64,000 bases of DNA, from NCBI GenBank assembly GCA_963169195.1, contig CAUJDN010000061.1, positions 19,833 through 83,832 of the forward strand. The letters are read 5' to 3'. The notes beneath the pieces are model-generated. The model was given only the letters and a program-made list of their open reading frames with translations, made no database searches and was not told the DNA's origin. This document shows, piece after piece, positions 17,226 through 30,745 of the stretch. Source of the DNA: Acidobacteriota bacterium (GTDB lineage Bacteria > Acidobacteriota > Vicinamibacteria > Vicinamibacterales > UBA2999). The position numbers and the translations under genes are program-made. Within the stretch, counting starts at the first letter, position 1. The number at the start of each line of letters is the position of its first letter.

Positions 17226-17228
17226 GCG

Positions 17229-18481: not shown

Positions 18482-19207
18482 ATGCGGGTGACCATGGGCG
18501 CGGTTGGGACACGGGGGACGGGGCGCGTGTGCCCGCCGCTCGTCCGACTCGCGTTCTGCTTCGGACCTGTTGCCCTCTGCCCGCTCGCCATTCCAACGGT
18601 GGCGTCTGCCGACATCGTCGTGTTCACGACCGGGCGGACGATGTCGGTGGCGGCGGCCCGCGTAGAGGGCAACCGGCTCACGGTGACCCTGCGCGACGGG
18701 GGCGAGGCGAGTTTCCCGGCTGGCGTGGTCGCCCGCGTGGAGGCTGACGAGGCGCCCTATCCGGCGCCCGCGGACCCACCGCCCCTCGAGGTGGGGGCGG
18801 TCCCCGCACCGGGTGTCGCCGACGCGGCCCTCGCCTCGAGGCCGTTTGCGGACATCATCGCCGCCGCGGCCGCGGCCCATGGCGTGGATGCCCGCGTCGT
18901 GCACGCTGTCGTCGAGGCCGAGTCGAACTACCAGCCGCGCGCCCGATCGCGGAAGGGCGCCAAGGGGCTCATGCAGCTGATGCCGGCGACGGCACGGCAG
19001 TATGCCGTGCGGGACCCGTACGACCCGCGGACGAACATCGACGCCGGCGTGCGCCACCTGAAGGACCTGCTCGGCCGGTTTGACCTCGGGCTCGCGCTGG
19101 CGGCGTACAACGCGGGGGAAGCGGCGGTTCGCCGCCACGGGGGCGTCCCGCCCTTCGCCGAGACGCGGAGCTACGTCGCCCGTATCCTCCAGCGGGTGGG
19201 TCGATAG
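18482..19207 (+). CDS. Soluble lytic transglycosylase (SLT domain) protein
   Basis: SD GGGAGG upstream. Catalytic region ..VVEAESNYQPRARSRKGAKGLMQLMP.. and ..AAYNAGEAAV... Directly precedes the secretion/pilus cluster. Confidence 0.8.
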   Translation: MRVTMGAVGTRGTGRVCPPLVRLAFCFGPVALCPLAIPTVASADIVVFTTGRTMSVAAARVEGNRLTVTLRDGGEASFPAGVVARVEADEAPYPAPADPPPLEVGAVPAPGVADAALASRPFADIIAAAAAAHGVDARVVHAVVEAESNYQPRARSRKGAKGLMQLMPATARQYAVRDPYDPRTNIDAGVRHLKDLLGRFDLGLALAAYNAGEAAVRRHGGVPPFAETRSYVARILQRVGR

Positions 19208-19313
19208 GGGCTCACGCTCGACTGTCCGCGCCCCGTCTCGGTCTAACCTGGTGGGCCCGGGCGGACGATTTCGCCCATTTTCGTGTAACATCTTGTAGGA
19301 CAACCTTTTAGGG

Positions 19314-20525
19314 ATGGAGTTCCGCTGCCGCCTCGGCACCCCGTCGGGCGAGATCATCGAGGGCGTCTACGTCGCCCAGAGCGAGGCCGCGCTCCGCCGC
19401 GAGCTGGAGGAGAAGGGGCTCCACGTCCTGTCGCTCCGGGAGCGAGGGCAGCTCATCGGCCTGTCCTTCGGCGGGCGCCGCCACAAGATTGCGAGGCACG
19501 AGTTCCTGGTGTTCAACCAGGAGCTGGCAACCCTGCTGAAGGCCGGGATGCCGCTGGTGCAATCGCTCGACATCCTGCGGATGAGGCTGTCGAACCCCGT
19601 GTTCAAGGCCGTCCTGGACGACGTGCACGAGAAGGTGCGGGGGGGGACGGCGCTCTCGGACGCGTTCATGGCGCACGGGGAGCACTTCCCGAGCGTGTAC
19701 ACCGCGTCGCTCATGGCGGGGGAGCGGTCGGGTAATCTCGACGCGGTCCTGCGGCGCTACGTGGCCTACACGAAGGTCATCGACACCGTGCGGACGAAGT
19801 CGATCTCGGCGCTCGTGTACCCGGCCATCCTCATCGCGCTTGCGCTCGTGCTCGTGGGGATCATCGTGATCAAGGTGGTGCCCACGTTCTCGGAGTTCTA
19901 CACGAGTTTCGGCGCGCAGCTGCCGGTGTCGACGCGCGTCATCGTGGCCGTGTCGGACGTCGTCCGCGCGCAGATGTGGCCGCTGCTGGGGGCGGTGGTG
20001 ATCGGTGTCGTCGTGTTCCGGGCCTGGCTGAAGGGCCCGGGACAGCAGGCGCGTTTCGACCGGATCGTGCTGCGGCTGCCGGGCATCGGGCCGAGCATGC
20101 ACAAGTTCGCCACGTCGCAGCTGGCGCGGACGCTGGCCACGCTGCTCGGTGGCGGCATCCCGCTGGTGAACGCGCTCGACATCGCCTCGAAGTCCACGGG
20201 CAACCGCCACATGGGCCGTGAACTCGAGCTGGTGGCGCAGAAGGTCCGCGAAGGGCAGGGGTTCGCGACCACCCTGCTCGATCGGCAGACCGTGCCGGAC
20301 GTGGCGATCAAGATGATCGAGGTCGGGGAGAGCACCGGGGCGCTCCAGGAGATGCTCAACAGCCTGGCGGACTTCTACGACGAGGAGATTGAAACCGAGG
20401 TGAGCCGGTTCGTCACGCTCATCGAGCCGGCGCTGCTCGTCATCATGGGCGTGGTGATCGCCGCCATCGTGCTGGCGCTCTACATGCCGCTCTTCCAGTT
20501 GACCTCCGTCCTGGGCAACCGCTGA
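19314..20525 (+). CDS. gspF: Type II secretion / type IV pilus platform protein (GspF/PilC family)
   Basis: 403 aa with two T2SSF repeats (..FNQELATLLKAGMPLVQSL.., ..QLARTLATLLGGGIPLVNAL..) and three TM segments. Confidence 0.9.
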   Translation: MEFRCRLGTPSGEIIEGVYVAQSEAALRRELEEKGLHVLSLRERGQLIGLSFGGRRHKIARHEFLVFNQELATLLKAGMPLVQSLDILRMRLSNPVFKAVLDDVHEKVRGGTALSDAFMAHGEHFPSVYTASLMAGERSGNLDAVLRRYVAYTKVIDTVRTKSISALVYPAILIALALVLVGIIVIKVVPTFSEFYTSFGAQLPVSTRVIVAVSDVVRAQMWPLLGAVVIGVVVFRAWLKGPGQQARFDRIVLRLPGIGPSMHKFATSQLARTLATLLGGGIPLVNALDIASKSTGNRHMGRELELVAQKVREGQGFATTLLDRQTVPDVAIKMIEVGESTGALQEMLNSLADFYDEEIETEVSRFVTLIEPALLVIMGVVIAAIVLALYMPLFQLTSVLGNR

Positions 20526-22195
20526 TGGACGCCACCCAGCATCCCGATACCGACGCGCTCGATCCCGAGTCGCTCATCGAGGAACCCGCCGAGTCGGCGG
20601 CTGCCCTCGCGGCGCGGTCGGCAGAGGCCGAGCAGGCGCGGCGGCTGGCCGAGCGCTACCGGCTCGAGTTCCTGGACATGGCGGACTTCCGGATCGACCA
20701 GGAGCTCTTCCGGTCGATCCCGGCCGATCTCATGCTGCGCTACGGGTTCGTGCCCAGCCGCCGCGAGGGGAAGGCCATCGTCATCGTGGTCTCGGACCCG
20801 ACGGACCTCCCGATGATCGACGAGCTGAGCGTGCTGCTCGGGACGCCGATCAGGGTCATGGTGGGCGCGCGCTCGGCGATCGAGTCGATCCTGAAGAAGA
20901 GCGAGAGCTCGCAGCGGCTGCTGGACGAGGCCACCGAGGAGTTCCAGATCCAGGTCCTGCGCGAGGACGAGGGCGGGGAGGACAACCTCAGCCTCGAGCG
21001 CCTGACGAGCGACGACAGCCCCATCATCAAGCTGGTGCACCGGACCATCTTCACGGCCATCCAGCGGCGCGCGAGCGACATCCACATCGAGACGCAGGAC
21101 GATGCGGTGCACGTGAAGTACCGGGTGGACGGCGTGCTGCAGCCGGCGATGCGGCCCATCGCGAAGCGCTTCCACAGCTCGATCATCTCGCGCATCAAGG
21201 TGATGGCCGAGCTGGACATCGCCGAGAAGCGCGTGCCGCAGGACGGCCGCTTCAAGCTGAAGGTGCCGGGCAAGACCATCGATTTCCGCGTGTCGGTGAT
21301 GCCGAGCGCGCACGGCGAGGACGCGGTCATCCGCATCCTCGACAAGCAGTCGATCAGCGAGCAGTTCACCGAGCTGCGTCTCGACATCCTCGGGTTCCCC
21401 GACCTGGAACTGCGGCGCTTCCGCAAGTACATCCGGGAGCCGTACGGCATGGTGCTGGTCACCGGACCGACGGGGTCCGGCAAGACGACGACGCTCTATG
21501 CCGCCCTGGCCGAGATCAAGTCGATCGAGGACAAGATCATCACGATCGAGGACCCGGTCGAGTACCAGCTGCGCGGCATCACGCAGATCCCGATCAACGA
21601 GAAGAAGGGACTGACCTTCGCGCGCGGGCTGCGGTCCATCCTGCGCCACGACCCCGACAAGATCATGGTGGGCGAGATCCGCGACCCCGAGACGGCGCAA
21701 ATCGCCATCCAGTCGGCGCTGACGGGCCACCTGGTCTTCACCACGGTCCACGCCAACAACGTGTTCGACGTGCTGGGGCGGTTCCTGAACATGGGCGTGG
21801 AGCCGTACCAGTTCATCTCGGCGCTCAACTGCGTGATGGCCCAGCGGCTCGTCCGCCGTATCTGCGAGTCGTGCAGGCGCGAGGCGCGGTACGAGACGGA
21901 CCTGCTGATCGAGTCGGGACTGAACCCGGCGCTGGCCACCTCGCACGTGTTCCACGAGGGCGCCGGGTGCATCGAGTGCAGCGGCACCGGCTTCAAGGGC
22001 CGCATGGCCATCTGCGAGCTGCTGGACCTCACCGACAACATCCGCGAGATCATCCTGGACCGGCGGCCCATCTCCGAGGTCAAGCGCGCGGCCAAGGAAC
22101 AGGGGATGCGCTTCCTGCGCGAGTCGGCGGTCGAGCGCGTGATGCACGGCCTGACCACGCTGCGCGAGATCAACAAGGTGACCTTCGTCGAATGA
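20525..22195 (+). CDS. gspE: Type II secretion / type IV pilus assembly ATPase (GspE/PilB family)
   Basis: The start overlaps the gspF stop by 1 nt. Walker A ..VTGPTGSGKTTTLY.., Asp/His boxes, and tetracysteine motif CESC..CIEC. Confidence 0.93.
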   Translation: MDATQHPDTDALDPESLIEEPAESAAALAARSAEAEQARRLAERYRLEFLDMADFRIDQELFRSIPADLMLRYGFVPSRREGKAIVIVVSDPTDLPMIDELSVLLGTPIRVMVGARSAIESILKKSESSQRLLDEATEEFQIQVLREDEGGEDNLSLERLTSDDSPIIKLVHRTIFTAIQRRASDIHIETQDDAVHVKYRVDGVLQPAMRPIAKRFHSSIISRIKVMAELDIAEKRVPQDGRFKLKVPGKTIDFRVSVMPSAHGEDAVIRILDKQSISEQFTELRLDILGFPDLELRRFRKYIREPYGMVLVTGPTGSGKTTTLYAALAEIKSIEDKIITIEDPVEYQLRGITQIPINEKKGLTFARGLRSILRHDPDKIMVGEIRDPETAQIAIQSALTGHLVFTTVHANNVFDVLGRFLNMGVEPYQFISALNCVMAQRLVRRICESCRREARYETDLLIESGLNPALATSHVFHEGAGCIECSGTGFKGRMAICELLDLTDNIREIILDRRPISEVKRAAKEQGMRFLRESAVERVMHGLTTLREINKVTFVE

Positions 22196-23082
22196 GCCTC
22201 CTCGACTGGCTGGCAGCGGCCCCGCCCGACGTGGCGGTGGCCATCGATCGGGGACACGTCTCGGCCGCGCGCCTCGACTGGCGCGGCGGCCGGCCGGTCG
22301 TGGCCGCGGAAGCATGCGAGGCCCTTCCCGCGGGGACCGTGACGCCGGCGCTGGCCGTCGCCAACATGCCCGACACGGGCGCCGTCGGTGTCGTGGTCTC
22401 GCGGGTGCTGGGCGAGCTCGGCGGACGGGCCTCGCGCGTCGCGCTCGTCGTGCCCGACCCGGTGGTGAAGGTGTCCCTGATCCGCCTGGAGAAGGTGCCC
22501 CAGCGCGCCGCCGACCTGCGCGAGATCGTCCGCTGGCAGGTGAAGAAGAGCTCGCCCTTCCCGGTGGAGCAGGCGGTGCTCAGCATCAGCCCCGGCGAGG
22601 ATCTGCCCGACGGCGGCCGCGAGTTCGTCGTGGCGCTCGCCCGTGAGGATGTCATCCGGCAGTACGAGCAGGCGTGCGCGATGGCGCGGGCCCATGCCGG
22701 CGTCGTCGACCTGGCGACCTTCGGTGTCGTCAGCAGCATCCTGACGGGCGGCGTGCCCTCCGGGGACTGGCTGGTGGTCCACGTGGCCGAGTCGTTCACG
22801 ACCGTGGCCGTCATGCGCGGCGAGCGGCTGATCTTCTTCCGGACCCGATCCGACGAATCGGAGGGGACGCTGGGCGACCTCATCCACCAGACGGCGATGT
22901 ACTACGAGGACCGGCTCCAGGGCACGGGACTCTCGCACGTGTGGCTGGCGGGCCCCGGCGCGATGACCACCGAGGCGCAGCGGGACGTGGAAGCGCGGCT
23001 GAACACGCGTGTGGAGGCCATTCCGGCCGGCCCGCTGGCCCCGCTGATCGGCGTGCTCGCGCGCGACGGGAAGGCGGCCTGA
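22192..23082 (+). CDS. pilM: PilM-like actin-fold assembly protein
   Basis: The ATG at 22192 overlaps the gspE stop (ATGA). ..ALVVPDPVVKVSLIRLEKVPQRAADLREIVRWQVKKSSPFPVEQ.. is a typical PilM pattern. The upstream part of ORF 21871.. is out of frame within gspE. Confidence 0.8.
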   Translation: MSLLDWLAAAPPDVAVAIDRGHVSAARLDWRGGRPVVAAEACEALPAGTVTPALAVANMPDTGAVGVVVSRVLGELGGRASRVALVVPDPVVKVSLIRLEKVPQRAADLREIVRWQVKKSSPFPVEQAVLSISPGEDLPDGGREFVVALAREDVIRQYEQACAMARAHAGVVDLATFGVVSSILTGGVPSGDWLVVHVAESFTTVAVMRGERLIFFRTRSDESEGTLGDLIHQTAMYYEDRLQGTGLSHVWLAGPGAMTTEAQRDVEARLNTRVEAIPAGPLAPLIGVLARDGKAA

Positions 23083-23083
23083 C

Positions 23084-23713
23084 GTGGTGCGCGCCAACCT
23101 CTCGACCCGACCGTTCTACAACGAGCGCCTGGTGCGGGCGGTGCTCGGCCTGATCACGCTGGTGGCGATCGGCCTGACCGGCTACAACGTCGCCAGGATT
23201 CTCGCGCTCCGGTCGCAGGGCGCCGAGGCCCGCGGGCAGGCCGAGGGGGCCACGCGCGAGGCGGGCCAGCTGCGCGCCGAGGCGCTCCGCATCCGGCAGA
23301 CCATCAACCGCGAGCAGCTCGCGGCCGTGCAGGCCGCGGCGCACGAGGCGAACCAGCTGATCGACCGGCGCGCGTTCTCGTGGACCGATCTGTTCAACCA
23401 GTTCGAGCGCACGCTGCCCGCCGGCGCCCGGATCGCCGCGGTGACGCCGCAGTTCGACACCGGGGGGCGCATGATGGTGGCCGTGTCCGTGGTGTCCCGC
23501 CGGGTCGAGGACCTCGACGCCTTCATCGAGGCCCTGGAGAAGACCGGCCGGTTCAGTCAGGTGCTGTCGCGGCAGGAGGAGGCGCAGGAGGATGGGACCC
23601 TGATGTCCATCATTCAGGGCTACTACCGGCCCTCGGCGACCCCGCCGGCCGCCGCGGAGGCTGCCGCTGCACTGCCCGCGCCGACGGACGTGCGCGCGGA
23701 GGGGCCGCGATGA
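23084..23713 (+). CDS. pilN: PilN-like bitopic assembly protein
   Basis: N-terminal ..NLSTRPFYNER.., one TM helix, a coiled coil, then a ferredoxin-like C-terminal part. Its position after pilM supports the call. Confidence 0.7.
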   Translation: MVRANLSTRPFYNERLVRAVLGLITLVAIGLTGYNVARILALRSQGAEARGQAEGATREAGQLRAEALRIRQTINREQLAAVQAAAHEANQLIDRRAFSWTDLFNQFERTLPAGARIAAVTPQFDTGGRMMVAVSVVSRRVEDLDAFIEALEKTGRFSQVLSRQEEAQEDGTLMSIIQGYYRPSATPPAAAEAAAALPAPTDVRAEGPR

Positions 23714-24312
23714 AGGCGCAGTTCGGCATGGCCGAAGCGGTGCCGATCTCGCGGGTGATCCGCGACTACCGCCCGTGGATTGTGACGCTGGCCGTGGCGC
23801 TCGTCGCGAACCTCGGCGTGCTGCTGCTCGTGGTGCTGCCCCTGTCGGCGTCCACCGATGCCGGCGCCCGCCGGGCGGCGGCCGCCGTCGAGGACCGGGC
23901 CGCGGCAGAGGCCGAGCTGCGGGCGGCCGAACAGACGCGCGATGGCCAGTCCCAGGCCGCGCGCGACCTGGAGCGCTTCTACGGCGAGATCCTGCCCACG
24001 GATGTCGCCACCGCGCGACGCCTGACGCATCTCAGGCTGAGCCAGATGGCGCGCGAGCACGACGTGACGTTCCAGCGCAGCTCCGCCGCGCCCGAGGAGC
24101 TTCGCGACTCATCGCTCGAGCGGCTCCGCGTGAGCTACGCGCTCAGCGGCGACTACGAGGACATCCGGGCCTTCATCTACGAAATCGAGACGGCGCCAGA
24201 CTTCCTGGTCATCGACAACGTCTTTCTGGCGGAGGGGACCGGCGACCAGGCGCCGCTGACCTTGACACTCGATCTCTCCACGTATTACCGGGTGACCCGC
24301 GATGCGCCCTGA
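23710..24312 (+). CDS. pilO: PilO-like bitopic assembly protein
   Basis: The ATG at 23710 overlaps the pilN stop. One TM, a coiled coil, and a C-terminal ..YEDIRAFIYEIETAPDFLVIDNV.. motif typical of PilO/GspM. Confidence 0.6.
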   Translation: MKAQFGMAEAVPISRVIRDYRPWIVTLAVALVANLGVLLLVVLPLSASTDAGARRAAAAVEDRAAAEAELRAAEQTRDGQSQAARDLERFYGEILPTDVATARRLTHLRLSQMAREHDVTFQRSSAAPEELRDSSLERLRVSYALSGDYEDIRAFIYEIETAPDFLVIDNVFLAEGTGDQAPLTLTLDLSTYYRVTRDAP

Positions 24313-24865
24313 CCGCCGCACGCTGCTGACCGCGGCGGCCCTGGTCGTGGTGCTGGGCGCGGTGGCGTGGACATTCTTCGGGCCGTCCACCCCGGCGCCG
24401 GCCTCCGTCGCCCAGGCCGACGGGCGGAGGAACACGCTGGCGGGAGCGCCGCTGCCGTCGGCGGAGGCCGTGCGGCTCGCGGACCTGGACGCGCCGCGGG
24501 CGAAGCCGTCCGAAGCCACGCGCGACCCCTTCCGGTTCCAGGCGCGCGCGTCCCAGGCCGGCGTGTCCTCGCCCGGCGCGGCTCCGGTGTTCGCGCCGGT
24601 GCAGACGGCACCCGCAGGGCCGACCGAGCCCGCCGGCCCGCCCCCGCCGCCGCCCATCACGCTGAAGTTCATCGGCGTGGTGGAAACGGCGGGCGGCCTG
24701 AAGCTGGCGGTGCTCAGCCAGGGGGAGGGCCGTGCACCGATGCACGGCAAGGAAGGGGATATCATCGACGGCCGGTACCGGATCCTGCGGATTGGGACCG
24801 AGTCGATCGAAATGGCGCACCTCGACGGGCGTGGCCGGCAGACCATCCGGCTCACCGGGCAGTAG
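24302..24865 (+). CDS. PilP / GspC-HR-like periplasmic protein
   Basis: N-terminal TM, Pro-rich linker, then a C-terminal beta domain ..LKFIGVVETAGGLKLAVLSQ..GKEGDIIDGRYRILRIGTESIEM... Positioned before the secretin. Confidence 0.55.
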   Translation: MRPDRRTLLTAAALVVVLGAVAWTFFGPSTPAPASVAQADGRRNTLAGAPLPSAEAVRLADLDAPRAKPSEATRDPFRFQARASQAGVSSPGAAPVFAPVQTAPAGPTEPAGPPPPPPITLKFIGVVETAGGLKLAVLSQGEGRAPMHGKEGDIIDGRYRILRIGTESIEMAHLDGRGRQTIRLTGQ

Positions 24866-24935: not shown

Positions 24936-27503
24936 ATGACGTTGACACTGGCAGGGCGAACATTGGTCGTGGTGGCCCTCGCGGCCCTCGTCGCCGGCTG
25001 CGCGACCGGGCGGGCCTACACGCGCGGGCAGGAGGCCGCGAAGGCCGGCGACTGGGACTCCGCCGTGGGCTTCTACCGCCAGGCGCTGCAGGACGATCCC
25101 GACCGGCCGGACTACAAGATTGCGCTCGAGCGCGCCATGCTGGCGGCGGCGCAGATGTACGTCGCCCGCGCCCGCGCGTTCGAGGCCGCGAACCAGCCCG
25201 AAGAGGCCGCGCGGGCCTATCGCAAGGCGCTCGAGTTCGAGCCGTCGAACCGGCCCGTGGCGCAGCGGGCCGCCGAGATCGAGCGGATGCTCCGCGATCG
25301 CCTCGAGGCGGCCGCGCCGCGGCCCGAGATCGAGAAGCTCCGGGAGCAGGCGCGGCGCCAGTCGGCCGAGCCCATCCTCAACCCGTCGAGCCGCGATCCG
25401 CTGAGCATCCGGTTCACCAACGCCAGCATCCGCGACGTCCTCAACTTCATCGGCAACGCGACGGGCATCAACGTCACCTACGATCGCGACTTCCAGGATC
25501 GCTCGATCACGCTGACCCTCGAGGGCGTCACGCTGGAGCAGGCGCTCCGGCAGATCATGATTGCCAACCAGCTCTTCTACAAGGTGCTCGACGAGCGCAC
25601 CATCATCGTGGCGGCCGACACGACCCAGAAGCGGACGCAGTACGAGGAGCAGGTCATCCGGACGTTCTTCATCTCGCACGCCGACGCGACGGAGATCTCG
25701 CAGCTGCTCACCGGCATCGTGCGGGTGGCGGGCGTGGCCATCCAGCCGACGATTGTCGCGAACAAGACGACCAACACCATCACCGTGCGCGCCACCGCCG
25801 CAGTGGTCGAGATCGTCGAGCGGATGATCGCCGCCAACGACAAGCCTCGGGCCGAGGTCGTGGTCGACGTGCAGATCCTCGAGGTGAACCGGGAGCGTGC
25901 GAAGCAGTACGGCCTGAACCTCGCGGACTACCAGGTCAGCGGCATCTTCTCGCCCGAGACGACGCCGGGCGACGCGCCGTTCAACCTGAACACCATCTCC
26001 ACCGGCATCAGCACGGCGGACTTCTACCTCTCCGTGCCCGCGGCGGTGATGAAGTTCCTCGAGAGCGATTCGTCGACCAAGGCGCTCGCCAAGCCGCAGC
26101 TCCGGGGCGTGGAAGGGCAGAAGCTGACGCTGAACCTCGGTGAGGACGTGCCCGTGCCGAGCACGACGTTCACGCCCATCGCCGGGGGCGGCGTGGCCAC
26201 GCAGCCGCTGACCTCGTTCGCCTACCGCACGGTCGGTGTCATCGTCGAGATGACACCGCGCGTCACCTACGAAGGCGAAATCATCCTCGAGCTGTCGGTC
26301 GAGAGCAGCGCCCGGGGGCAGGACACGAACATCGCCGGGCAGAACCTGCCGTCGTTCCTGTCGCGAAAGGTCGTCACCAAGCTGCGCCTGCGCGACGGCG
26401 AGTCGAACCTGCTGGCCGGCCTGCTCCGCGAGGACGAGCGCCGCTCGCTGCGCGGCTTCCCGGGCATCCTCCGGCTGCCCCTCGTCCGGCAGTTGTTCTC
26501 GGCCAACGACGAGTCGATTCGGCAGTCGGACATCGTGATGCTGCTGACGCCGCGGATCATCCGCACGCACGAGCTGACGGCGACGGACCTGAGCCCCATC
26601 TACGTGGGCACGCAGAGCAACATGGCGCTGGGCGGCCCGCCGCCGCTCATCAGCGTCGGCGGCACCGAGCCGCCGCCGGCCGCCGGGCCTGCGGCGGGCG
26701 CGGCCCCCGGGGCGCCGGCGCCGGGCACGCCGGCGACGCCAACGACCGCCCCGGCGCCGCGGGATCTGCCGCCGACGACCGGCACACCGGTCACCACGCC
26801 CGGCGCCACCGGCGTCACGCCGATGCTGCCGCCAGGCTCATCGCCCATCCCGGGAACCATCGGGGTGCCGGCCCAGCCGGCGCAGCCGCCGCCAAGCGGC
26901 GTGACGGTCTTCCAGCCGGTCGAGCCGGCCCCGGCCCAACCCGCCGCCACTCCGCCGCCGACCGGCTTGTTCGGCACGCCCGTCACGCCCACGGAACCGC
27001 CCGCGCCAGGCGCTGCGGTCGCACCGGGCGTGTCGGTCCCCGCTCCGCCGCCGCCCCCTGGCGCCCCGCCCGCGGCCCCGGCGGCCGCCGACGCCGCGCG
27101 GATCTCGCTCAGCCCGCCAAGCGAGATGCGAGTGAGCAGCGGACCGTACACCGTGCCGGTGTCCATCAGCGGCGCCTCGCGCCTCACCGCCGTGACGGTG
27201 TCCATCACGTTCAACCCGGCGCTGCTGCGCGTGCGCAGCGTGTCGGAAGGCACGTTCATGCGCCAGGGTGGGGCCACGCCGACCTTCACGCAGCAGGTGG
27301 ATTCTGCGGCGGGCCGGATCGACATCGCCATCGTGCGGCCCGGGGACCAGGTGGGCGCATCGACCACGGGCCTGCTCGCGGCCATTCTCCTCGAGCCGGT
27401 CGCCGCGGGCACGGGCACGCTCTCCATCAGCGGCTCGGGGACCGTCGCGGGTGGCGGGGCGGCCACGCTCCGGTTCGCTCCCGCGGGAGTGGTGGTGCGA
27501 TAG
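24936..27503 (+). CDS. Secretin (GspD/PilQ family) lipoprotein with N-terminal TPR region and C-terminal cohesin-like domain
   Basis: ATG at 24936. Lipobox LVAGC, then TPR-like helices, N-domains (..IRFTNASIRDVLNFIG..), and a secretin core (..KPQLRGVEGQKLTLNLG.. ..IVMLLTPRII..). A ~150-aa P/A/T/G linker follows. The terminal ~130 aa resemble a cohesin fold. Confidence 0.88.
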   Translation: MTLTLAGRTLVVVALAALVAGCATGRAYTRGQEAAKAGDWDSAVGFYRQALQDDPDRPDYKIALERAMLAAAQMYVARARAFEAANQPEEAARAYRKALEFEPSNRPVAQRAAEIERMLRDRLEAAAPRPEIEKLREQARRQSAEPILNPSSRDPLSIRFTNASIRDVLNFIGNATGINVTYDRDFQDRSITLTLEGVTLEQALRQIMIANQLFYKVLDERTIIVAADTTQKRTQYEEQVIRTFFISHADATEISQLLTGIVRVAGVAIQPTIVANKTTNTITVRATAAVVEIVERMIAANDKPRAEVVVDVQILEVNRERAKQYGLNLADYQVSGIFSPETTPGDAPFNLNTISTGISTADFYLSVPAAVMKFLESDSSTKALAKPQLRGVEGQKLTLNLGEDVPVPSTTFTPIAGGGVATQPLTSFAYRTVGVIVEMTPRVTYEGEIILELSVESSARGQDTNIAGQNLPSFLSRKVVTKLRLRDGESNLLAGLLREDERRSLRGFPGILRLPLVRQLFSANDESIRQSDIVMLLTPRIIRTHELTATDLSPIYVGTQSNMALGGPPPLISVGGTEPPPAAGPAAGAAPGAPAPGTPATPTTAPAPRDLPPTTGTPVTTPGATGVTPMLPPGSSPIPGTIGVPAQPAQPPPSGVTVFQPVEPAPAQPAATPPPTGLFGTPVTPTEPPAPGAAVAPGVSVPAPPPPPGAPPAAPAAADAARISLSPPSEMRVSSGPYTVPVSISGASRLTAVTVSITFNPALLRVRSVSEGTFMRQGGATPTFTQQVDSAAGRIDIAIVRPGDQVGASTTGLLAAILLEPVAAGTGTLSISGSGTVAGGGAATLRFAPAGVVVR

Positions 27504-27505
27504 CC

Positions 27506-27982
27506 ATGCGGCGCCTCCGCGCGGCCCACGGGTACACCTTCGTCGAGCTGCTGGTGGTCACGACCATCGTGCTGATCCTCGCCTCGGCCGTACAGCCGCT
27601 GGCGCGCGTGACCATCCAGCGGCAGAAGGAAGTGGAGCTGCGCCGCGTGCTGCGCGAGATGCGCGATGCCATCGACAAGTTCAAGGACGCCGCCGACCAG
27701 GGGATGATCCCGACCACCGAGCTCAAGGCCAACAGCGAAGGCTACCCGCCCGATCTCGAGGTGCTCGTCGATGGGGTCTCGGTCGCCAACGACGCCTCCG
27801 GACGCAAGCTCAAGTTCCTGCGCCGCATCCCCAAGGATCCGATGACGGGCGAGGCCGAATGGGGCCTCCGATCCTACCAGGACAAGCCGGACACCACGAG
27901 CTGGGGCGGCCAGAACGTCTTCGACGTGCGCTCGCTCAGCGAGGGTACGGCGCTCGACGGGTCGAAGTACAAGGACTGGTAG
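27506..27982 (+). CDS. gspG: GspG-like major pseudopilin (prepilin-type N-terminus)
   Basis: Leader MRRLRAAHG followed by YTFVELLVVTTIVLILA (Glu at +5). GspG-like body ..YPPDLEVLV.. and ..FLRRIPKDPMTG... Confidence 0.85.
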   Translation: MRRLRAAHGYTFVELLVVTTIVLILASAVQPLARVTIQRQKEVELRRVLREMRDAIDKFKDAADQGMIPTTELKANSEGYPPDLEVLVDGVSVANDASGRKLKFLRRIPKDPMTGEAEWGLRSYQDKPDTTSWGGQNVFDVRSLSEGTALDGSKYKDW

Positions 27983-27999
27983 CAGGGGGAGAGTGCGGA

Positions 28000-28485
28000 G
28001 TGCTGGTGACGCAGTGCAGCGCCTGGCTCGCCGACGCGCGGGCGTTCGCCGCCAGATGGCGGGACGGCGGGCGTGTGCCGCCCGCGCGTCCCGGTACCGG
28101 GCGCCATGGATTCACCATGATCGAGCTGCTCGTCGTCATCTCGATCATCGTCATCCTGGCCAGCCTGGGGATGGTGCAGTACCGCAACAGCGTCATCCGC
28201 GCGCGCGAGGCGGTGCTGAAGGAGGACCTCTTCCGCATGCGCGACGCGATCGACCAGTACTACGCCGACAAGAGCAAGTACCCCTCGTCGCTGGACGATC
28301 TCGTGACGGACGGCTACCTCCGCGAGATCCCCGTGGACCCCATCACCCAGTCGAAGGACACCTGGCAGGTGGTCAACCAGGAGCCGAATGTCAACGATGC
28401 CACGGCGCAGCCGGGCGTCTACGACGTGAAGAGCGGATCGGATCAGACCGCGCTCGACGGCACCCGGTACGCGGACTGGGAATAG
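28000..28485 (+). CDS. gspG: GspG-like pseudopilin, second copy
   Basis: Prepilin motif G|FTMIELLVVISIIVILA, then ..AVLKEDLFRMRDAIDQYYADKSKYPSSLDDLV..YLREIPVDPIT... The start is uncertain: GTG 28000 (SD AGGGGGAG upstream) or GTG 28075 (12-aa leader). Confidence 0.8.
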   Translation: MLVTQCSAWLADARAFAARWRDGGRVPPARPGTGRHGFTMIELLVVISIIVILASLGMVQYRNSVIRAREAVLKEDLFRMRDAIDQYYADKSKYPSSLDDLVTDGYLREIPVDPITQSKDTWQVVNQEPNVNDATAQPGVYDVKSGSDQTALDGTRYADWE

Positions 28486-28581
28486 CTGATCATCAGCCGC
28501 GGGCGGGCGGCGATGGTCGTGCGACGGCCGACCCGCCAAACACGCACTCGCCAGCCGCCAATCGGCAATCGCCGAATGCGC

Positions 28582-29820
28582 CTACGGGTTCACCCGGACC
28601 GTCAACTGGGCGAGCCCGGACGTCCCCGTCGTCGTCCGCACGGTGACGGTCGCGATGTAGGTGCCAGGCGCCGTGTAGCGATGGTTCGTCGTCGAGCCCG
28701 TGGTGACGGCGCCCCGGCCGTCGCCGAAGCTCCAGTCGTAGGACACGATTCCCGCCGACGACCCCAGGCCGCCGGCCGACGCCGAGAAGGCGACGATGCC
28801 CTGCTGCAGCGGGCTGCCGATTGACACCGGGTTCGGTGTCGCGGTCATCGTCAGCGGGACGGATGACTGGTCGTTCACGTTCACGACAATCGAGGACGTG
28901 CCCGTGATGCCCTGCGTGTCCGTGACCGCCGCCCGCACGGTGTAGACGCCCGCACGCGGGAAGGCATGCGCGACCGGCGTCGCACCCGAGATGGCGCCCA
29001 GGCGCGTCACCGCCGTGCCGTCGCCCCAGTCGATGACCACGTCCCGGATGCCATTCGTGCCCGTCCCGGCGACGGGCGTGATCGTGAAGGTCGCGCCGAC
29101 CCCGGCCTCGAGGCCCGTCGTCGGTGCGGCGATGGTCACCGCCGGCGATGAGGCGGTCACGTCGACGGTCGCGCTCTGGCCGCCGGCCGTGGCCGTCACG
29201 GTCGCGGACCGCGGCGCCGTGAGCGTCGTGCGAGCCTCGCCACTGGCGGTGGTGATGGCCTGGCCGGCCGAGAGTTGTCCTGCGGTCGTCGTGAACGTGA
29301 CGGGCACGCCCAGCAGTGGGTTACCCGCCGCGTCCACGACGGTGGCGATGACGTCCGTGCTGCCGCCGGTGGCGGGGATGGTCTGCGGATCCGCGCGCAG
29401 GATGATGCGCGCGGCCGCGGCGCCGCCGACGAGGATCTCCACTTCTGTGGCGCGGGTCGCGCCGGAGAACGCGCCGATCTTCGCCGTGCCGGACTGGGCG
29501 CTCGCGATGAAGCGCACCGTGGCCTTGCCGCCCTCCGTGCGAGCCTCCGTCGGGTCGATGGTGCCGAACGAGGAGGTGAACGTGACGACGGTGCCATTCT
29601 GCACCGGCGTGCCCGCCGATTCGGTCACCGAGGCGGACACCTCTGCCGTGCCGTTGACCGGCACGACCGTCGTGCTGACCGTCAGGGTGATGGTGGACTC
29701 GGTTGGCGCCAGCAGGGGCACCTTGTCGCAGGCCGACAGAGTGGCCGCCGCGAACAGGAGCGCGAAAAGCGACGAGCGGGAACGTGACACGGGCAAGGCC
29801 AATAAGGATAATAGGCGCAT
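28582..29820 (-). CDS. Lipoprotein with tandem bacterial Ig-like (Big) and PKD-like domains
   Basis: Signal peptide/lipobox ..AATLSAC. Repeated ~85-aa Thr/Val/Ala-rich beta modules (..GTAEVSASVTESAGTPVQNGTVVTFTSS..). Two PKD-type motifs (VVIDWGDGT.., VSYDWSFGDGR..). Confidence 0.75.
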   Translation of the reverse strand: MRLLSLLALPVSRSRSSLFALLFAAATLSACDKVPLLAPTESTITLTVSTTVVPVNGTAEVSASVTESAGTPVQNGTVVTFTSSFGTIDPTEARTEGGKATVRFIASAQSGTAKIGAFSGATRATEVEILVGGAAAARIILRADPQTIPATGGSTDVIATVVDAAGNPLLGVPVTFTTTAGQLSAGQAITTASGEARTTLTAPRSATVTATAGGQSATVDVTASSPAVTIAAPTTGLEAGVGATFTITPVAGTGTNGIRDVVIDWGDGTAVTRLGAISGATPVAHAFPRAGVYTVRAAVTDTQGITGTSSIVVNVNDQSSVPLTMTATPNPVSIGSPLQQGIVAFSASAGGLGSSAGIVSYDWSFGDGRGAVTTGSTTNHRYTAPGTYIATVTVRTTTGTSGLAQLTVRVNP

Positions 29821-30745
29821 GGGGTTAGCGGGTCAAGGCTGTCGCGCTGACGCGCGCGGCTACGCCATGGCCGCGTTGCTCGTCGGAATGAGCGTGATGG
29901 CCGTGATGATGGCGGCTGCGCTGCCCGTGTGGACGCATGTCGCCCAGCGCGAGAAGGAAGAGGAGTTGATCTGGCGCGGCGAGCAGTACCGGCGCGCCAT
30001 CATGCTGTTCCAGCGCCGCTACGCGAACACCTTCCCGCCGACCCTGGACGTCCTCGTCGAGCAGAAGTTCCTGCGGAAGAAATACAAGGACCCGATCGCC
30101 AACGACGACTTCCAGATCATTCCGGTCGGCGGCGCGATGCCGGGCGGCCGGCCCGGCATGCCTGCGACCGGCGGGCCAGCCAACGTCCCCGGCGGCCAGG
30201 GAGGCGCGGGTGGGTTCGGGGCGGCGCAGCCGGGCACGCCGGCAGGGGCGGCGACCTCGTCTTCGTTCGGCCAGGCCACGCAGCCCGCCATGGGCATCCA
30301 GGGCGTCACTTCGAAGAGCAAGGACCAGTCCATCAAGCTCTATAACGGGATGGACCGCTACAACCAGTGGGCGTTCGTGTATCTGGCCGCGTCCACGCAG
30401 GCGGGCGCGGGCGGAGCGGGGTTTGTGCAGCCCGGCATGCGTGGCCGCCCGCCAGGCGCCGGCGGGCCGCCGGGTGGGGGCTTCGGCCAGCCTGGCGGAG
30501 GCTTCGGGCCGCCGGGAGGGGGTTTCGGGCAACCGGGAGGCGGGTTCGGTCAGCCAGGCGGGGGCTTCGGTCAGCCTGGAGGAGGGTTTGGCCAGCCGGG
30601 CGTTCCCGCCCAGCCGAAGTACCCGCCGGTGCCCGGGGGGGCCGGCTCGCCCGGTGGCTTCGGGGCGCCTGGCGGTGGCGTCCCTCCGGCGGGGCCTGGC
30701 GGTTCGGTGTTCACGCCGGGTACCCCCGGCAGCGGTGGACAATAA
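29819..30745 (+). CDS. Divergent GspG-like protein lacking Glu+5, with Gly-rich C-terminal tail containing (GGGFGQP)x6
   Basis: N-terminus ..ARG|YAMAALLVGMSVMAVMM... Its body parallels the two pseudopilins (REKEEEL.., ..FPPTLDVLVEQKFLRKKYKDPI..). An alternative start is ATG 29867. Confidence 0.6.
   Translation: MGLAGQGCRADARGYAMAALLVGMSVMAVMMAAALPVWTHVAQREKEEELIWRGEQYRRAIMLFQRRYANTFPPTLDVLVEQKFLRKKYKDPIANDDFQIIPVGGAMPGGRPGMPATGGPANVPGGQGGAGGFGAAQPGTPAGAATSSSFGQATQPAMGIQGVTSKSKDQSIKLYNGMDRYNQWAFVYLAASTQAGAGGAGFVQPGMRGRPPGAGGPPGGGFGQPGGGFGPPGGGFGQPGGGFGQPGGGFGQPGGGFGQPGVPAQPKYPPVPGGAGSPGGFGAPGGGVPPAGPGGSVFTPGTPGSGGQ
30473..30598 (+). repeat. Six in-frame 21-bp tandem repeats encoding GGGFG(Q/P)P
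   Basis: The units differ mainly at synonymous positions (GGTGGGGGCTTCGGCCAGCCT / GGCGGAGGCTTCGGGCCGCCG / ...). Confidence 0.9.

What the first reader, a model, noticed from the sequence alone, without database searches (positions are those of the whole stretch)
18482..30745. Hybrid type II secretion / type IV pilus-like cluster with non-canonical gene content and order
One co-oriented block encodes SLT, GspF/PilC, GspE/PilB, split PilM, PilN and PilO (instead of GspL/GspM), a PilP/GspC-like protein, a secretin, and two GspG-type pseudopilins. A third aberrant GspG paralogue follows. I see no prepilin peptidase, no PilT-type retraction ATPase, and no GspH/I/J/K minor pseudopilin set in the window. 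The order F-E-M-N-O-P-secretin-G-G matches neither the textbook gsp operon nor the pilMNOPQ plus pilBCD layouts.
Basis: partly seen in the sequence, partly recalled or inferred. Interest (0 to 1): 0.7.

Follow-up and report, generated by a model that had tools for sequence, protein, structure and literature searches.

The report
Pul-type secretion/pilus machine of Acidobacteria
This is a real gene cluster for a type II secretion-like machine built on type IV pilus-style scaffold proteins; it is conserved across soil Acidobacteria and Nitrospira and has the gene order already annotated as the "Pul" system of Geobacter relatives, so it is unusual by textbook standards but not a one-off hybrid.

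Summary
The cluster is real, in a Vicinamibacterales (Acidobacteriota) chromosome.
- PilM is one 296-aa ORF, not split.
- The second pseudopilin lies in another frame (28075-28485).
- The 584-aa "aberrant GspG" is a chimeric ORF. Its first 276 codons are antisense to a real minus-strand Big_1/PKD lipoprotein gene. The true third pseudopilin is 29819-30745 and lacks Glu5.

The window holds no prepilin peptidase, PilT or GspH-K. Nor do the 10-kb flanks of about 88 related loci.

The parts score equally well or ambiguously as T2SS or T4aP. The ATPase scores PilB ≈ GspE and the platform scores GspF > PilC. The PilM-like model matches PilM rather than GspL. The pseudopilins are Cys-free and weakly GspG-like.

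The order F-E-M-N-O-P-secretin-G-G, plus the lipoprotein and the E5-less pilin, is kept in about 80 Vicinamibacterales species and three other acidobacterial MAG lineages. Nitrospira has the same parts in a permuted order. The order equals the published pulFEMNOPQ-pulG-oxpG annotation of Pelobacter/Geobacter, the "atypical T2SS".

Best reading: a non-retractile, T2SS-like endopilus machine that uses a prepilin peptidase encoded elsewhere. The secretin is a lipoprotein with an N-terminal TPR region and a C-terminal cohesin domain; I found no description of such a secretin. Interest is moderate to low.

The parts
17546..18433 (+). Conserved hypothetical protein, probably exported or a lipoprotein (295 aa). 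It sits directly upstream of the SLT gene. Whether it belongs to the system is uncertain.
   Evidence: High GC3. No Pfam hit. Found at this position in 63 related loci, median 59% identity. Absent from this position in the other acidobacterial lineages.
18482..19207 (+). Lytic transglycosylase (SLT domain) with a signal peptide. It probably opens the peptidoglycan for the machine.
   Evidence: Pfam SLT 4.4e-26. Conserved position in Vicinamibacterales. A terminator-like hairpin at 19259-19276 separates it from F, though such hairpins are no more frequent here than chance.
19314..20525 (+). Inner-membrane platform protein (GspF/PilC/'PulF').
   Evidence: Pfam T2SSF 7e-57. NCBIfam GspF 347 bits against myxococcal PilC 309, both below their cut-offs. 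E. coli GspF 206 bits against HofC 124. Nearest 50%-identity clusters outside its own are at 42-47% identity and come from other Acidobacteriota.
20525..22195 (+). Assembly ATPase (GspE/PilB/'PulE'), the only ATPase of the cluster.
   Evidence: Pfam T2SSE 5e-131 plus an MshEN-type N-terminal domain. NCBIfam PilB 544 bits against GspE 538, both below cut-off. PDB: Geobacter PilB 455 bits, Myxococcus PilB 420, Vibrio GspE 359. E. coli GspE 328 against HofB 298. Median 84% identity across the order.
22192..23082 (+). Cytoplasmic actin-like PilM-type protein ('PulM'). It is a single ORF and is not fused to a membrane segment.
   Evidence: PilM_2 8.8e-10 and TIGR01175 64 bits (cut-off 133). Identical 296-aa protein in public MAGs. 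AlphaFold model pLDDT 88.7. Its best PDB folds are PilM (E 3e-21; TM 0.77 to 2ych and 3jc8), with cyto-GspL far behind (E 1e-8, TM 0.52-0.54).
23084..23713 (+). Bitopic PilN-like protein ('PulN'). Its conserved N-terminus, M-x-R-x-N-L-S/A-T-R-P-F-Y-N, resembles the PilN peptide that PilM binds.
   Evidence: No family hit on the window protein. Its counterparts in L086 and L095 carry weak PF05137 PilN hits. Conserved N-terminal motif and TM helix. The motif's resemblance to the PilN INLLP peptide is from memory, so it is an inference.
23710..24312 (+). Bitopic PilO/GspM-like protein ('PulO').
   Evidence: Pfam T2SSM_b 27.1 bits (above the 21.7 cut-off); PilO 17.5 bits (below cut-off). NCBIfam XpsM-type GspM 45 bits (cut-off 60). 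No significant PDB sequence hit with a profile.
24302..24865 (+). Bitopic protein with a Pro-rich linker and a small C-terminal beta domain, at the PilP/GspC position ('PulP'). It has no PDZ domain and no lipobox.
   Evidence: Position and topology read from the sequence. Only a marginal T2SSC hit over the TM region (E 0.14). No PDB hit. Conserved C-terminal motif GDxIDGRYRIxKIGxESI. The assignment is an inference.
24936..27503 (+). Secretin lipoprotein ('PulQ'). Domain order: lipobox VAGC, TPR repeats, STN/N0, one Secretin_N, secretin core, a Pro-rich linker of about 190 aa, and a C-terminal cohesin domain. It has no AMIN domains.
   Evidence: Pfam Secretin 5e-31, TPR_2 3e-9, Secretin_N 6e-9, Cohesin 2e-5 (25.2 bits, cut-off 24.1), STN 1e-4. 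NCBIfam GspD 126 bits, PilQ 121, MshL 87, all far below cut-off. The TPR and cohesin-like ends are present in 70-72 of 75 loci with a secretin core; the exceptions are truncated contigs or E. coli references. Cohesin hits also occur in L086 and L087.
27506..27982 (+). Pseudopilin G1 (158 aa). Class III signal ...AHG|YTFVELLVV with Glu5, no cysteine, and C-terminus ALDGSKYKDW. It is the most conserved non-ATPase part.
   Evidence: N_methyl 4.9e-5. TIGR01710 GspG 27.6 bits (cut-off 88.85). Median 79% identity across the order, against 84% for the ATPase. Orthologues at 42-55% in the other acidobacterial lineages and in Nitrospira.
28075..28485 (+). Pseudopilin G2 (136 aa from GTG 28075; alternative starts at 28000 and 28006). 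Canonical G|FTMIELLVV, no cysteine, GspG-like 'YLREIPxDP' motif, and C-terminus ALDGTRYADW.
   Evidence: Frame assigned by GC3. N_methyl 4.5e-6. TIGR01710 42.5 bits. Pfam T2SSG hit in 14 of 18 orthologues, best E 8e-4 and below cut-off. The PDB profile reaches the soluble domains of GspG (5wda 36 bits; 3g20 E 0.02). The single-sequence AF2 model was uninformative (pLDDT 64).
28582..29820 (-). Lipoprotein with Big_1/Invasin_D3 and two PKD domains. It is a conserved companion of the cluster, either a candidate substrate or cargo or a surface component. Its true start may be GTG 29790.
   Evidence: Pfam PKD_4 2e-19, Big_1 3e-14. Lipobox LSAC. A Big_1 lipoprotein lies between G2 and G3 in all three other acidobacterial loci, there on the same strand. 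A promoter-like site at 29836-29808 on the minus strand would put the transcript start downstream of ATG 29820.
29819..30745 (+). Third, atypical pseudopilin G3 (308 aa). It has an ...ARG|YAMAALLV signal without Glu5. Its pilin-like core is split by low-complexity sequence and followed by a Gly/Pro-rich (GGGFGQP)n tail.
   Evidence: True start from the conserved N-terminus M-x-LAGQG. The lack of Glu5 is conserved in Vicinamibacterales, the other acidobacterial lineages, Nitrospira and the L089/L091 variants. It is a paralogue of G1 and G2 by tblastn cross-hits. No Pfam, NCBIfam or PDB hit. A promoter-like site at 29784-29812 lies immediately upstream.

Best explanation
The cluster encodes a complete envelope-spanning machine of the type IV filament superfamily. 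It belongs to the 'Pul-type' architecture annotated in Geobacter and Pelobacter.

**Proposed mechanism.**
- One ATPase (PulE-like) on a PulF-like platform drives the assembly.
- It polymerises Cys-free, weakly GspG-like pseudopilins (G1, G2) into a short periplasmic endopilus.
- The endopilus sits under a self-piloting TPR-lipoprotein secretin.
- The inner-membrane and outer-membrane parts are aligned by unfused PilM/PilN, PilO and a PilP/GspC-HR-like protein, rather than by GspL/GspM/GspC.
- The pseudopilins must be processed by a prepilin peptidase encoded elsewhere in the genome.
- The Glu5-less G3 is inferred to be the tip or priming subunit, taking the role of the missing GspHIJK set.
- The SLT enzyme is inferred to clear peptidoglycan.

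The most likely output is secretion or surface display of folded proteins, that is T2SS-like function, rather than a retractile pilus.

**Shown:** the gene content, the family assignments of E, F, M, the secretin and the prepilin signals, the conservation, and the synteny.

**Inferred:** the endopilus behaviour, the role of G3, and secretion as the function.
For: **Parts and families.**

**Operon structure.** Genes from F to G2 overlap or are separated by at most 92 bp.

**PilM.** The fold is PilM, not GspL.

**Pseudopilins.**
- They have class III signals and no cysteine.
- They give weak GspG hits only (TIGR01710, Pfam T2SSG, PDB GspG soluble domains).
- G1 is the second most conserved protein of the locus (median 79% identity). 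This fits a buried endopilus subunit better than an exposed pilin.

**Absences.** No second ATPase, peptidase or GspH-K lies in the window or within 10 kb in about 88 related loci.

**Conservation.** The eleven-gene set is conserved across Vicinamibacterales, three other acidobacterial MAG lineages and Nitrospira.

**Literature match.** The gene order equals pulFEMNOPQ-pulG-oxpG, including a 'secretin lipoprotein' and a third pseudopilin (tklG) beside a lipoprotein gene, in Pelobacter/Geobacteraceae. That paper states the system is required for secretion of the multicopper oxidase OmpB (PMC3543383; OxpG is also cited).

**G3.** Loss of Glu5 is conserved in every lineage examined. GspK likewise lacks Glu5 (my own knowledge).
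Against: - Function is untested in any acidobacterium, and no substrate is identified.
- The ATPase's best solved-structure matches are PilB proteins. The scaffold is PilMNOP-like, so a true pilus cannot be excluded.
- A PilT encoded elsewhere could serve this machine.
- The GspG assignment of G1 and G2 is weak, with all hits below family cut-offs. The G2 structure prediction failed.
- Sequence-level orthology to the Geobacter/Pelobacter Pul proteins could not be tested. No Geobacter sequence was reachable, so the link rests on published gene names and order.
- Denise et al. 2019 attach the Mehta 2006 experiment to the canonical gspN-M-L-K cluster of G. sulfurreducens. Which Geobacter system exports OmpB is therefore not unanimous in the literature.
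Confidence: 0.6

Rival explanations
1. It is a type IVa-like pilus machine for adhesion, biofilm formation or motility. G1 or G2 would be the surface-exposed major pilin. PilT, PilD and the minor pilins would be encoded in satellite loci, as is common for T4aP.
For: - PilM/N/O/P-type scaffold with a PilM fold.
- The ATPase's best solved-structure hits are PilB proteins.
- Public pipelines name the parts PilM and PilC.
- T4aP systems are typically multi-locus (Denise 2019).
Against: - The pilins lack the C-terminal disulphide region. The only globular-domain hits are to GspG, and they are weak.
- G1 is very highly conserved, unlike exposed pilins.
- The secretin has no AMIN domains.
- The platform scores higher with GspF than with PilC.
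- No PilT or minor-pilin operon was ever linked in about 88 loci.
- The same architecture is annotated as a T2SS, with a reported secretion phenotype, in Geobacteraceae.
Confidence: 0.2
2. It is a DNA-uptake (competence) pseudopilus with a secretin channel, analogous to HofMNOPQ/PilQ-dependent transformation systems.
For: - A ComM/YifB-type Mg-chelatase ATPase gene lies 5 kb upstream (11901-13469). It is syntenic in related loci.
- Pelobacter Pul-2 is flanked by a comM fragment, and that paper remarks on the proximity of pul genes to DNA-uptake and cell-division genes.
- RecN-like and SSB genes are also in the window.
Against: - No ComEA or ComEC was found among the window ORFs scanned.
- ComM sits on the opposite strand, beyond two unrelated genes.
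- The other acidobacterial lineages and Nitrospira have different neighbours: ECF sigma factor, LysM, LolA.
- Three dedicated pseudopilins plus a Big_1 lipoprotein and a cohesin-bearing secretin are not features of known competence systems.
Confidence: 0.08
3. It is a cryptic or decaying remnant, an incomplete T2SS that lost GspC/H/I/J/K/L/M/O and has no function.
For: - The canonical components are missing.
- Every component scores below its NCBIfam equivalog cut-off.
Against: - All genes are intact, with strong codon-position GC bias.
- The full set and order persist over about 80 species and across phyla under evident purifying selection. Median identities are E 84%, G1 79% and F 77%.
Confidence: 0.02

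Closest known systems
[quoted passage not shown] 2006, cited from the former)
   Same: - Identical gene order: F-E-M-N-O-P-secretin-G-G.
- The secretin is annotated as a lipoprotein.
- Separate PilM-, PilN-, PilO- and PilP-named scaffold proteins.
- Two tandem pseudopilins, plus a third (tklG) beside a lipoprotein gene.
- No gspH-K, gspL, gspM or peptidase in the cluster.
- comM and M23-peptidase genes nearby (compared).
   Different: - Different phylum.
- Sequence similarity to the Geobacter/Pelobacter proteins was not measurable here.
- Whether PulQ carries the TPR and cohesin domains is unknown, as is whether TklG lacks Glu5 and has a Gly-rich tail.
- In Vicinamibacterales the lipoprotein gene is inverted, and an SLT gene plus a hypothetical gene precede the operon.
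Canonical Gsp/Pul/Eps type II secretion system (Klebsiella, Vibrio, E. coli)
   Same: - A single ATPase and a platform protein. The platform scores higher with GspF than with PilC. For the ATPase only the E. coli comparison favours GspE; NCBIfam is a tie and the best solved-structure matches are PilB.
- Cys-free, weakly GspG-like pseudopilins.
- A secretin.
- No retraction ATPase.
   Different: - No GspH/I/J/K, GspC with PDZ, fused GspL or GspO.
- The cytoplasmic scaffold protein has the PilM fold, not the GspL fold.
- The secretin has one Secretin_N domain plus TPR and cohesin, instead of N0-N3.
- All equivalog cut-offs are missed.
Type IVa pilus machine (Myxococcus, Pseudomonas, Thermus PilBCMNOPQ)
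   Same: - PilM fold (TM 0.77 to 2ych and 3jc8).
- Separate PilN- and PilO-like bitopic proteins.
- The ATPase's closest solved relatives are PilB proteins.
   Different: - No PilT or PilD and no minor-pilin operon nearby.
- The pilins are not T4a type.
- The secretin has no AMIN domains.
- The P protein has a TM anchor instead of a lipobox.
- The genes form one operon headed by F-E.
Self-piloting liposecretins (e.g. HxcQ of Pseudomonas) and TPR pilotins (PilF/PilW/Tgl); comparison from my own knowledge
   Same: - The secretin has an N-terminal lipobox.
- It carries TPR repeats of the kind that separate pilotin lipoproteins provide in T4aP systems (weak TIGR02521 PilW hit).
   Different: - Here the lipid anchor, TPR and secretin are one polypeptide, and a C-terminal cohesin domain is added.
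- I found no description of this in the searched literature.
Reduced non-proteobacterial T2SS-like systems classed as 'generic' by TXSScan/MacSyFinder, such as those of Chlamydiae and Bacteroidetes (Denise 2019, PMC6668835; Abby 2016, PMC4793230)
   Same: - They lack recognisable minor pseudopilins and GspL/M.
- They are ambiguous between T2SS and T4P in profile scores.
   Different: - This system keeps a full PilMNOP-type scaffold and three pseudopilins.
- I could not run its MacSyFinder class.
- Acidobacteria and Nitrospirae are not listed among the T2SS-bearing clades in that paper.

Membership tests
Canonical T2SS (Gsp) | GspE ATPase and GspF platform at equivalog level | tested here: inconclusive
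   GspE scores 538 bits (cut-off 630) against PilB 544. GspF scores 347 bits (cut-off 424) against PilC 309. The E. coli Gsp proteins outscore the Hof proteins, but the PDB search favours PilB.
Canonical T2SS (Gsp) | Major pseudopilin GspG | tested here: inconclusive
   TIGR01710 scores 27.6 bits (G1) and 42.5 bits (G2) against a cut-off of 88.85. T2SSG is below cut-off in 14 of 18 G2 orthologues and in none of the G1 orthologues. PDB hits to GspG soluble domains are weak.
Canonical T2SS (Gsp) | Minor pseudopilins GspH, I, J, K | tested here: not met
   No hits in the window or in the 10-kb flanks of about 88 related loci, apart from N-terminal-helix cross-hits of GspH. Only three class-III signals occur in the window. 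They could still lie elsewhere in the genome.
Canonical T2SS (Gsp) | Fused GspL, GspM, and GspC with HR plus PDZ or coiled coil | tested here: not met
   Separate PilM-fold and PilN-like proteins are present. The O protein passes only the Pfam T2SSM_b cut-off. The P protein has no PDZ domain and no significant T2SSC hit.
Canonical T2SS (Gsp) | Prepilin peptidase GspO in or near the operon | tested here: not met
   No Peptidase_A24 or GspO hit in the window or in the related loci.
Type IVa pilus | PilM-PilN-PilO-PilP alignment subcomplex | tested here: met
   M is met by fold and by Pfam PilM_2. N and O are supported by weak PilN and PilO hits in orthologues and by topology. P is supported by position and topology only.
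Type IVa pilus | Retraction ATPase PilT/PilU | tested here: not met
   There is only one T2SSE-family ATPase in the window and in each related locus.
Type IVa pilus | T4a major pilin with a disulphide-bonded C-terminal region, plus a minor pilin set | tested here: not met
   G1 and G2 contain no cysteine. Similarity to T4a pilins is confined to the N-terminal helix. No minor-pilin operon is present.
Type IVa pilus | PilQ secretin with AMIN domains | tested here: not met
   No AMIN hit. PilQ model scores 121 bits against a cut-off of 284. The N-terminus is instead TPR plus STN plus one Secretin_N.
Pul-type atypical T2SS (Geobacteraceae/Pelobacter) | Gene order pulF-E-M-N-O-P-Q followed by two pseudopilin genes | tested here: met
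   Window order, compared with Table S4 of PMC3543383.
Pul-type atypical T2SS (Geobacteraceae/Pelobacter) | Secretin is a lipoprotein | tested here: met
   Signal peptide ending in the lipobox L-V-A-G-C. The Nitrospira homologue has LLSGC. PulQ is annotated 'secretin lipoprotein'.
Pul-type atypical T2SS (Geobacteraceae/Pelobacter) | Third pseudopilin (TklG) adjacent to a lipoprotein gene | tested here: inconclusive
   G3 lies next to the Big_1/PKD lipoprotein here and in all lineages examined. In Pelobacter, tklG-1 lies next to a 'lipoprotein, putative' gene. Homology between G3 and TklG was not tested.
Pul-type atypical T2SS (Geobacteraceae/Pelobacter) | Sequence orthology of the components to Geobacter/Pelobacter Pul proteins | not testable with these tools
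   No Geobacter or Pelobacter sequence could be retrieved. The nearest named relatives found were Acidobacteriota, Nitrospira and Thermodesulfobacterium. There was no plasmid hit.
Pul-type atypical T2SS (Geobacteraceae/Pelobacter) | Exports folded proteins (OmpB in G. sulfurreducens) | not testable with these tools
   This needs genetics and secretome analysis. The literature itself disagrees on which Geobacter cluster the experiment concerns.
MSH pilus | MshL secretin, MshE, and the MshI/J/K/M/N set | tested here: not met
   MshL model scores 87 bits against a cut-off of 250, lower than GspD or PilQ. No Msh-specific families were hit.

The most novel reading that the evidence does not exclude
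These clusters, with the Nitrospira and Geobacter 'Pul' ones, form a distinct and ancient subtype of the type IV filament superfamily, branching between T4aP and classical T2SS. The subtype would be defined by:
- an unfused PilMNOP-type scaffold;
- two anciently duplicated GspG-like pseudopilins;
- a Glu5-less Gly-rich tip pilin that replaces GspHIJK;
- a self-piloting TPR liposecretin whose 12-15 C-terminal cohesin domains dock cargo or a partner such as the linked Big_1 lipoprotein.

It would be the main folded-protein exporter of abundant soil phyla.
Probability: 0.2. Interest if true: 0.6.

Novelty: new member of a known kind. Interest (0 to 1): 0.35.

Why it matters
Acidobacteriota (Vicinamibacteria) and Nitrospira are abundant soil and water bacteria whose protein export is essentially unstudied. 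This locus is probably their conserved T2SS-like exporter. It shows that machines with a PilMNOP scaffold, GspG-like pseudopilins and no GspHIJK are a recurrent, vertically conserved architecture rather than annotation noise.

That bears on how T2SS arose from T4aP-like ancestors and on how classifiers such as TXSScan should treat such systems.

The fused lipobox-TPR-secretin-cohesin protein and the Glu5-less Gly-rich pseudopilin are concrete, testable oddities.

For genome annotation the practical lesson concerns 70% GC DNA. Long antisense ORFs there, such as the 584-aa 'aberrant GspG', are artefacts.

Tried and rejected
**Retrieving Geobacter/Pelobacter Pul sequences for a direct test failed.**
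- The genome scan returned only Vicinamibacterales.
- The platform-protein representative search, two profile searches and three cluster look-ups reached other Acidobacteriota, Nitrospira, Thermodesulfobacterium and Christensenellales, but no Desulfuromonadota.
- PLSDB plasmids gave no PilM-like hit.
- Mehta 2006 is not held.

**Structure and profile searches that gave nothing.**
- The single-sequence AF2 model of G2 was uninformative (pLDDT 64), so no fold search was run on it.
- Profile searches of N, O, P and G3 against PDB sequences gave nothing significant. The N alignment failed twice on in-frame stops.

**Phylogeny.** The NJ tree of 124 platform representatives is star-like and unlabelled. 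It only shows the window protein grouping with the 42-47% identity acidobacterial set. A rigorous E/F phylogeny against labelled T2SS, T4aP, T4bP, Com and Tad references could not be built.

**Literature.** Searches for T2SSM_b, for a cohesin-bearing secretin and for pulQ/pulM returned nothing relevant.

**Readings rejected.**
- 'Split PilM'.
- ORF 27993-28646 as a gene.
- ORF 28991-30745 as one gene.
- MSH-type assignment.
- The MshEN hit as evidence of c-di-GMP control. PF05157 is the general GspE/PilB N-terminal domain (my knowledge).

Full report
**Origin and gene calls**

The window is 70% GC chromosomal DNA. It carries core genes on both sides of the cluster: SecA, IMPDH, ParAB, LptFG, Tol-Pal, RpoN. 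The PilM-like protein is identical to one found on contigs binned as Vicinamibacterales/Acidobacteria, for example ERZ24907728 'Vicinamibacterales_1_contig_539' (123.7 kb) and GCA_020853475.1.

At this GC content every frame is full of long spurious ORFs. I therefore assigned genes by third-position GC and then by family searches.

**What is there**

The + strand genes are (Pfam, NCBIfam):

| Coordinates | Gene |
|---|---|
| 18482-19207 | SLT lytic transglycosylase |
| 19314-20525 | GspF/PilC platform |
| 20525-22195 | GspE/PilB ATPase |
| 22192-23082 | PilM-like |
| 23084-23713 | PilN-like |
| 23710-24312 | PilO/GspM-like (Pfam T2SSM_b above its cut-off) |
| 24302-24865 | PilP/GspC-HR-like |
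| 24936-27503 | secretin |
| 27506-27982 | pseudopilin G1 |
| 28075-28485 | pseudopilin G2 |

From F to G2 the genes overlap or lie at most 92 bp apart. This is the layout of a single translationally coupled operon.

- *PilM is not split.* It is one 296-aa ORF whose ATG overlaps the ATPase stop codon. It exists as such in the databases.
- *The second pseudopilin is in a different frame.* It is not the mechanical ORF 27993-28646.
- *The 584-aa 'third aberrant GspG' (28991-30745) is a chimera.* Its first 276 codons run antisense to a genuine minus-strand gene, 28582-29820. That gene encodes a lipoprotein with Big_1/Invasin_D3 and PKD domains and is conserved in relatives.
- *The real third pilin-like gene, G3, is 29819-30745 (308 aa).* Its conserved N-terminus M-x-LAGQG...RG|YAMAALLV fixes the start. 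A pair of divergent promoter-like sites sits exactly at this junction.

**The absences**

- Only three class-III signal motifs exist in all six frames.
- No Peptidase_A24, second ATPase or GspH-K appears in the ORFs scanned.
- E. coli GspO/H/I/J/K/L/M/C find nothing.
- The same holds for the 10-kb flanks of about 88 related loci.

**T2SS or T4P?**

No part reaches an NCBIfam equivalog cut-off, and the scores are nearly tied:

| Part | T4aP-side score (bits) | T2SS-side score (bits) |
|---|---|---|
| ATPase | PilB 544 | GspE 538 |
| Platform | PilC 309 | GspF 347 |
| Secretin | PilQ 121 | GspD 126 |

- Solved structures favour PilB for the ATPase: Geobacter 455 bits and Myxococcus 420, against Vibrio GspE 359.
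- A same-organism control with E. coli K-12 favours the Gsp side. GspF scores 206 against HofC 124, GspE 328 against HofB 298, and GspD 83 against HofQ 68.
- An AlphaFold model of the PilM-like protein (81-sequence alignment, pLDDT 88.7) matches PilM structures best (E 3e-21; TM 0.77 to Thermus and Myxococcus PilM). It matches the cytoplasmic domain of GspL only distantly (E 1e-8, TM about 0.53).
- The PilN-like protein has a conserved N-terminal M-x-R-x-N-L-S-T-R-P-F-Y-N. This resembles the PilN peptide that PilM clamps; that comparison is from my knowledge and is an inference.
- G1 and G2 have prepilin signals with Glu5 and no cysteine. They share a C-terminal ALDG-x-x-Y-x-DW and give weak, sub-threshold hits specifically to GspG models and GspG soluble-domain structures.
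- The secretin has no AMIN domains.

The scaffold is therefore T4aP-style and the filament subunits are T2SS-style. Because PilM+PilN, PilO and PilP are the recognised homologues of GspL, GspM and the GspC HR domain (reviews PMC4471445, PMC10191384), this is a variant of one machine plan rather than a fusion of two.

**It is a conserved, widespread architecture**

- A genome scan found PilM-like relatives in 376 species genomes. The best 80 are all Vicinamibacterales/Acidobacteriota MAGs, a few of them mislabelled.
- In every locus long enough, the order is SLT-LysM(-), Aldedh(-), hypothetical(+), SLT, F, E, M, N, O, P, Q, G1, G2, Big/PKD(-), G3(+).
- Median identities to the window proteins are E 84%, G1 79%, F 77%, Q 67%, G2 65%, M 54%, N, O and G3 52%, and P 49%.
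- The high conservation of G1 suggests a buried endopilus subunit rather than an exposed pilin. This is an inference.
- The platform protein's nearest 50%-identity clusters (42-47%) belong to Acidobacteriota outside the order; named hits include Acidobacteriia and Polarisedimenticolia.
- Three of those loci show F-E-M-N-O-P-Q(TPR...cohesin)-G1-G2-Big_1 lipoprotein-G3, all on one strand. G1 and G2 form separate orthologous pairs, so their duplication is ancient.
- A Nitrospira MAG has the same parts in permuted order: lipo-TPR-secretin, G1, G2, a LysM protein, then F-E-M-N-O-P and a G3-like gene.
- G3 lacks Glu5 in every lineage examined.

**Link to a described system**

The P. carbinolicus genome paper lists two 'type II secretion system Pul' clusters with exactly this order: pulF, pulE, pulM, pulN, pulO, pulP, pulQ ('secretin lipoprotein'), pulG, oxpG. 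A third pseudopilin, tklG, lies beside a putative lipoprotein gene. The paper states that this Pul system of the Geobacteraceae, distinct from their canonical Gsp system, is the one required for secretion of the multicopper oxidase OmpB. That is the 'atypical T2SS' of Mehta et al. 2006.

Two further parallels exist. Pul-2 is flanked by a comM fragment and Pul-1 by an M23 peptidase gene. The window has ComM/YifB (11901-13469) and an M23 peptidase (10818-11744) upstream.

Two caveats apply:
- I could not obtain any Geobacter or Pelobacter sequence, so the match is by published names and order only.
- Denise et al. 2019 attach the Mehta reference to the canonical gspN-M-L-K cluster of G. sulfurreducens. 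The literature is therefore inconsistent about which cluster was tested.

Neither Abby 2016 nor Denise 2019 reports T2SS in Acidobacteria or Nitrospirae. Their models would probably call this cluster T4aP or 'generic', but I could not run them.

**Mechanism proposed**

- *Shown.* The locus provides an ATPase, a platform, a PilM-fold protein, two bitopic PilN/PilO-like proteins, a TM-anchored protein with a small beta domain, a secretin lipoprotein, three prepilin-type proteins and an SLT enzyme.
- *Inferred.*
  - PulE on PulF extrudes G1/G2 subunits into a short periplasmic filament. The subunits are first cleaved by a peptidase encoded elsewhere.
  - The filament acts as a piston or scaffold under the secretin.
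  - PilM clamps the PilN N-terminus, PilN and PilO dimerise, and the P protein bridges to the secretin N0 domain.
  - The TPR-lipid-anchored N-terminus makes the secretin self-piloting.
  - G3, lacking Glu5 as GspK does, starts or caps the filament in place of GspHIJK.
  - The conserved Big_1 lipoprotein is a partner or a cargo.
  - The C-terminal cohesin domains, one per secretin subunit on a roughly 190-aa Pro-rich tether, dock something still unknown.

No PilT is linked, so I favour a non-retractile, secretion-type function (confidence about 0.6). The rivals are a true pilus (0.2), a DNA-uptake pseudopilus (0.08) and a dead remnant (0.02).

**Novelty and interest**

The system is a new (acidobacterial) member of a known kind. 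The kind is the type IV filament machines, and within them the little-studied Pul-type T2SS-like architecture.

I found no description of three features in the literature searched: the lipobox-TPR-secretin-cohesin fusion, conserved in 70-72 of 75 loci; the Glu5-less Gly-rich pseudopilin family; and the phylum-wide conservation. These give moderate interest to specialists in T2SS/T4P evolution, so I score interest at 0.35.

Noticed in passing
window 24936-27503 (especially residues 739-839, about 27150-27455): The secretin ends in a Pro-rich linker of about 190 aa and a cohesin domain (Pfam 25.2 bits, cut-off 24.1). It starts with a lipobox plus TPR repeats. Both ends are conserved in nearly all related loci, and the other acidobacterial lineages also have the cohesin. 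No dockerin partner was found among the neighbours, and I found no literature on cohesin-bearing secretins.
   Followed up: partly
window 15408-17603 (minus strand): A BMC-domain shell protein (17229-17603, Pfam BMC 3.7e-28) lies next to a 605-aa protein in which only the N-terminal 280 aa match aldehyde dehydrogenase. The pair is divergent from the cluster and syntenic with it throughout Vicinamibacterales. It may be a minimal microcompartment module.
   Followed up: no
window 29784-29836: The Big_1/PKD lipoprotein gene (minus) and G3 (plus) have annotated starts that share a CATG at 29818-29821. Two overlapping divergent sigma-70-like promoter matches lie in the only AT-rich patch (2 found, 0.6 expected). 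This implies a leaderless G3 mRNA and a later start for the lipoprotein (GTG 29790 or TTG 29802/29796).
   Followed up: partly
L089 9393-17085 and L091 9312-17460: A related variant in unnamed MAGs reads LolA-like, F, E, M, N, O, P, then a single very long (437-581 aa) Glu5-less G3-like pilin. There is no secretin and no G1 or G2 in the locus.
   Followed up: partly
L087 8123-9989, L088 8081-9990, L086 8108-10001: In the three acidobacterial loci outside Vicinamibacterales, the operon is preceded by an ECF sigma factor gene. An anti-sigma (zf-HC2) gene and a gene for a roughly 245-aa protein with a lone Secretin_N domain follow in L087 and L088; in L086 the two corresponding genes have no Pfam hit. 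The SLT and hypothetical genes of Vicinamibacterales are absent. This suggests ECF-controlled expression there.
   Followed up: no
window 11901-13469 (minus) and 10818-11744 (minus): ComM/YifB-type Mg-chelatase ATPase and an M23 peptidase lie upstream of the cluster. The Pelobacter paper notes comM, ftsEX and M23 genes next to its pul clusters, a possibly meaningful recurrent neighbourhood.
   Followed up: partly
Literature: PMC6668835 S2 table versus PMC3543383: Denise et al. 2019 list the experimentally validated G. sulfurreducens T2SS (Mehta 2006) as the canonical gspN/M/L/K cluster. Aklujkar et al. 2012 say the OmpB exporter is the separate Pul cluster that contains oxpG. One of the two attributions is probably wrong.
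   Followed up: partly
window 30821-35341 (minus strand): Two sodium:solute symporter genes flank a beta-lactamase-family serine hydrolase gene. Each is embedded in much longer spurious ORFs (840, 807 and 586 aa), a further example of ORF inflation at 70% GC.
   Followed up: no
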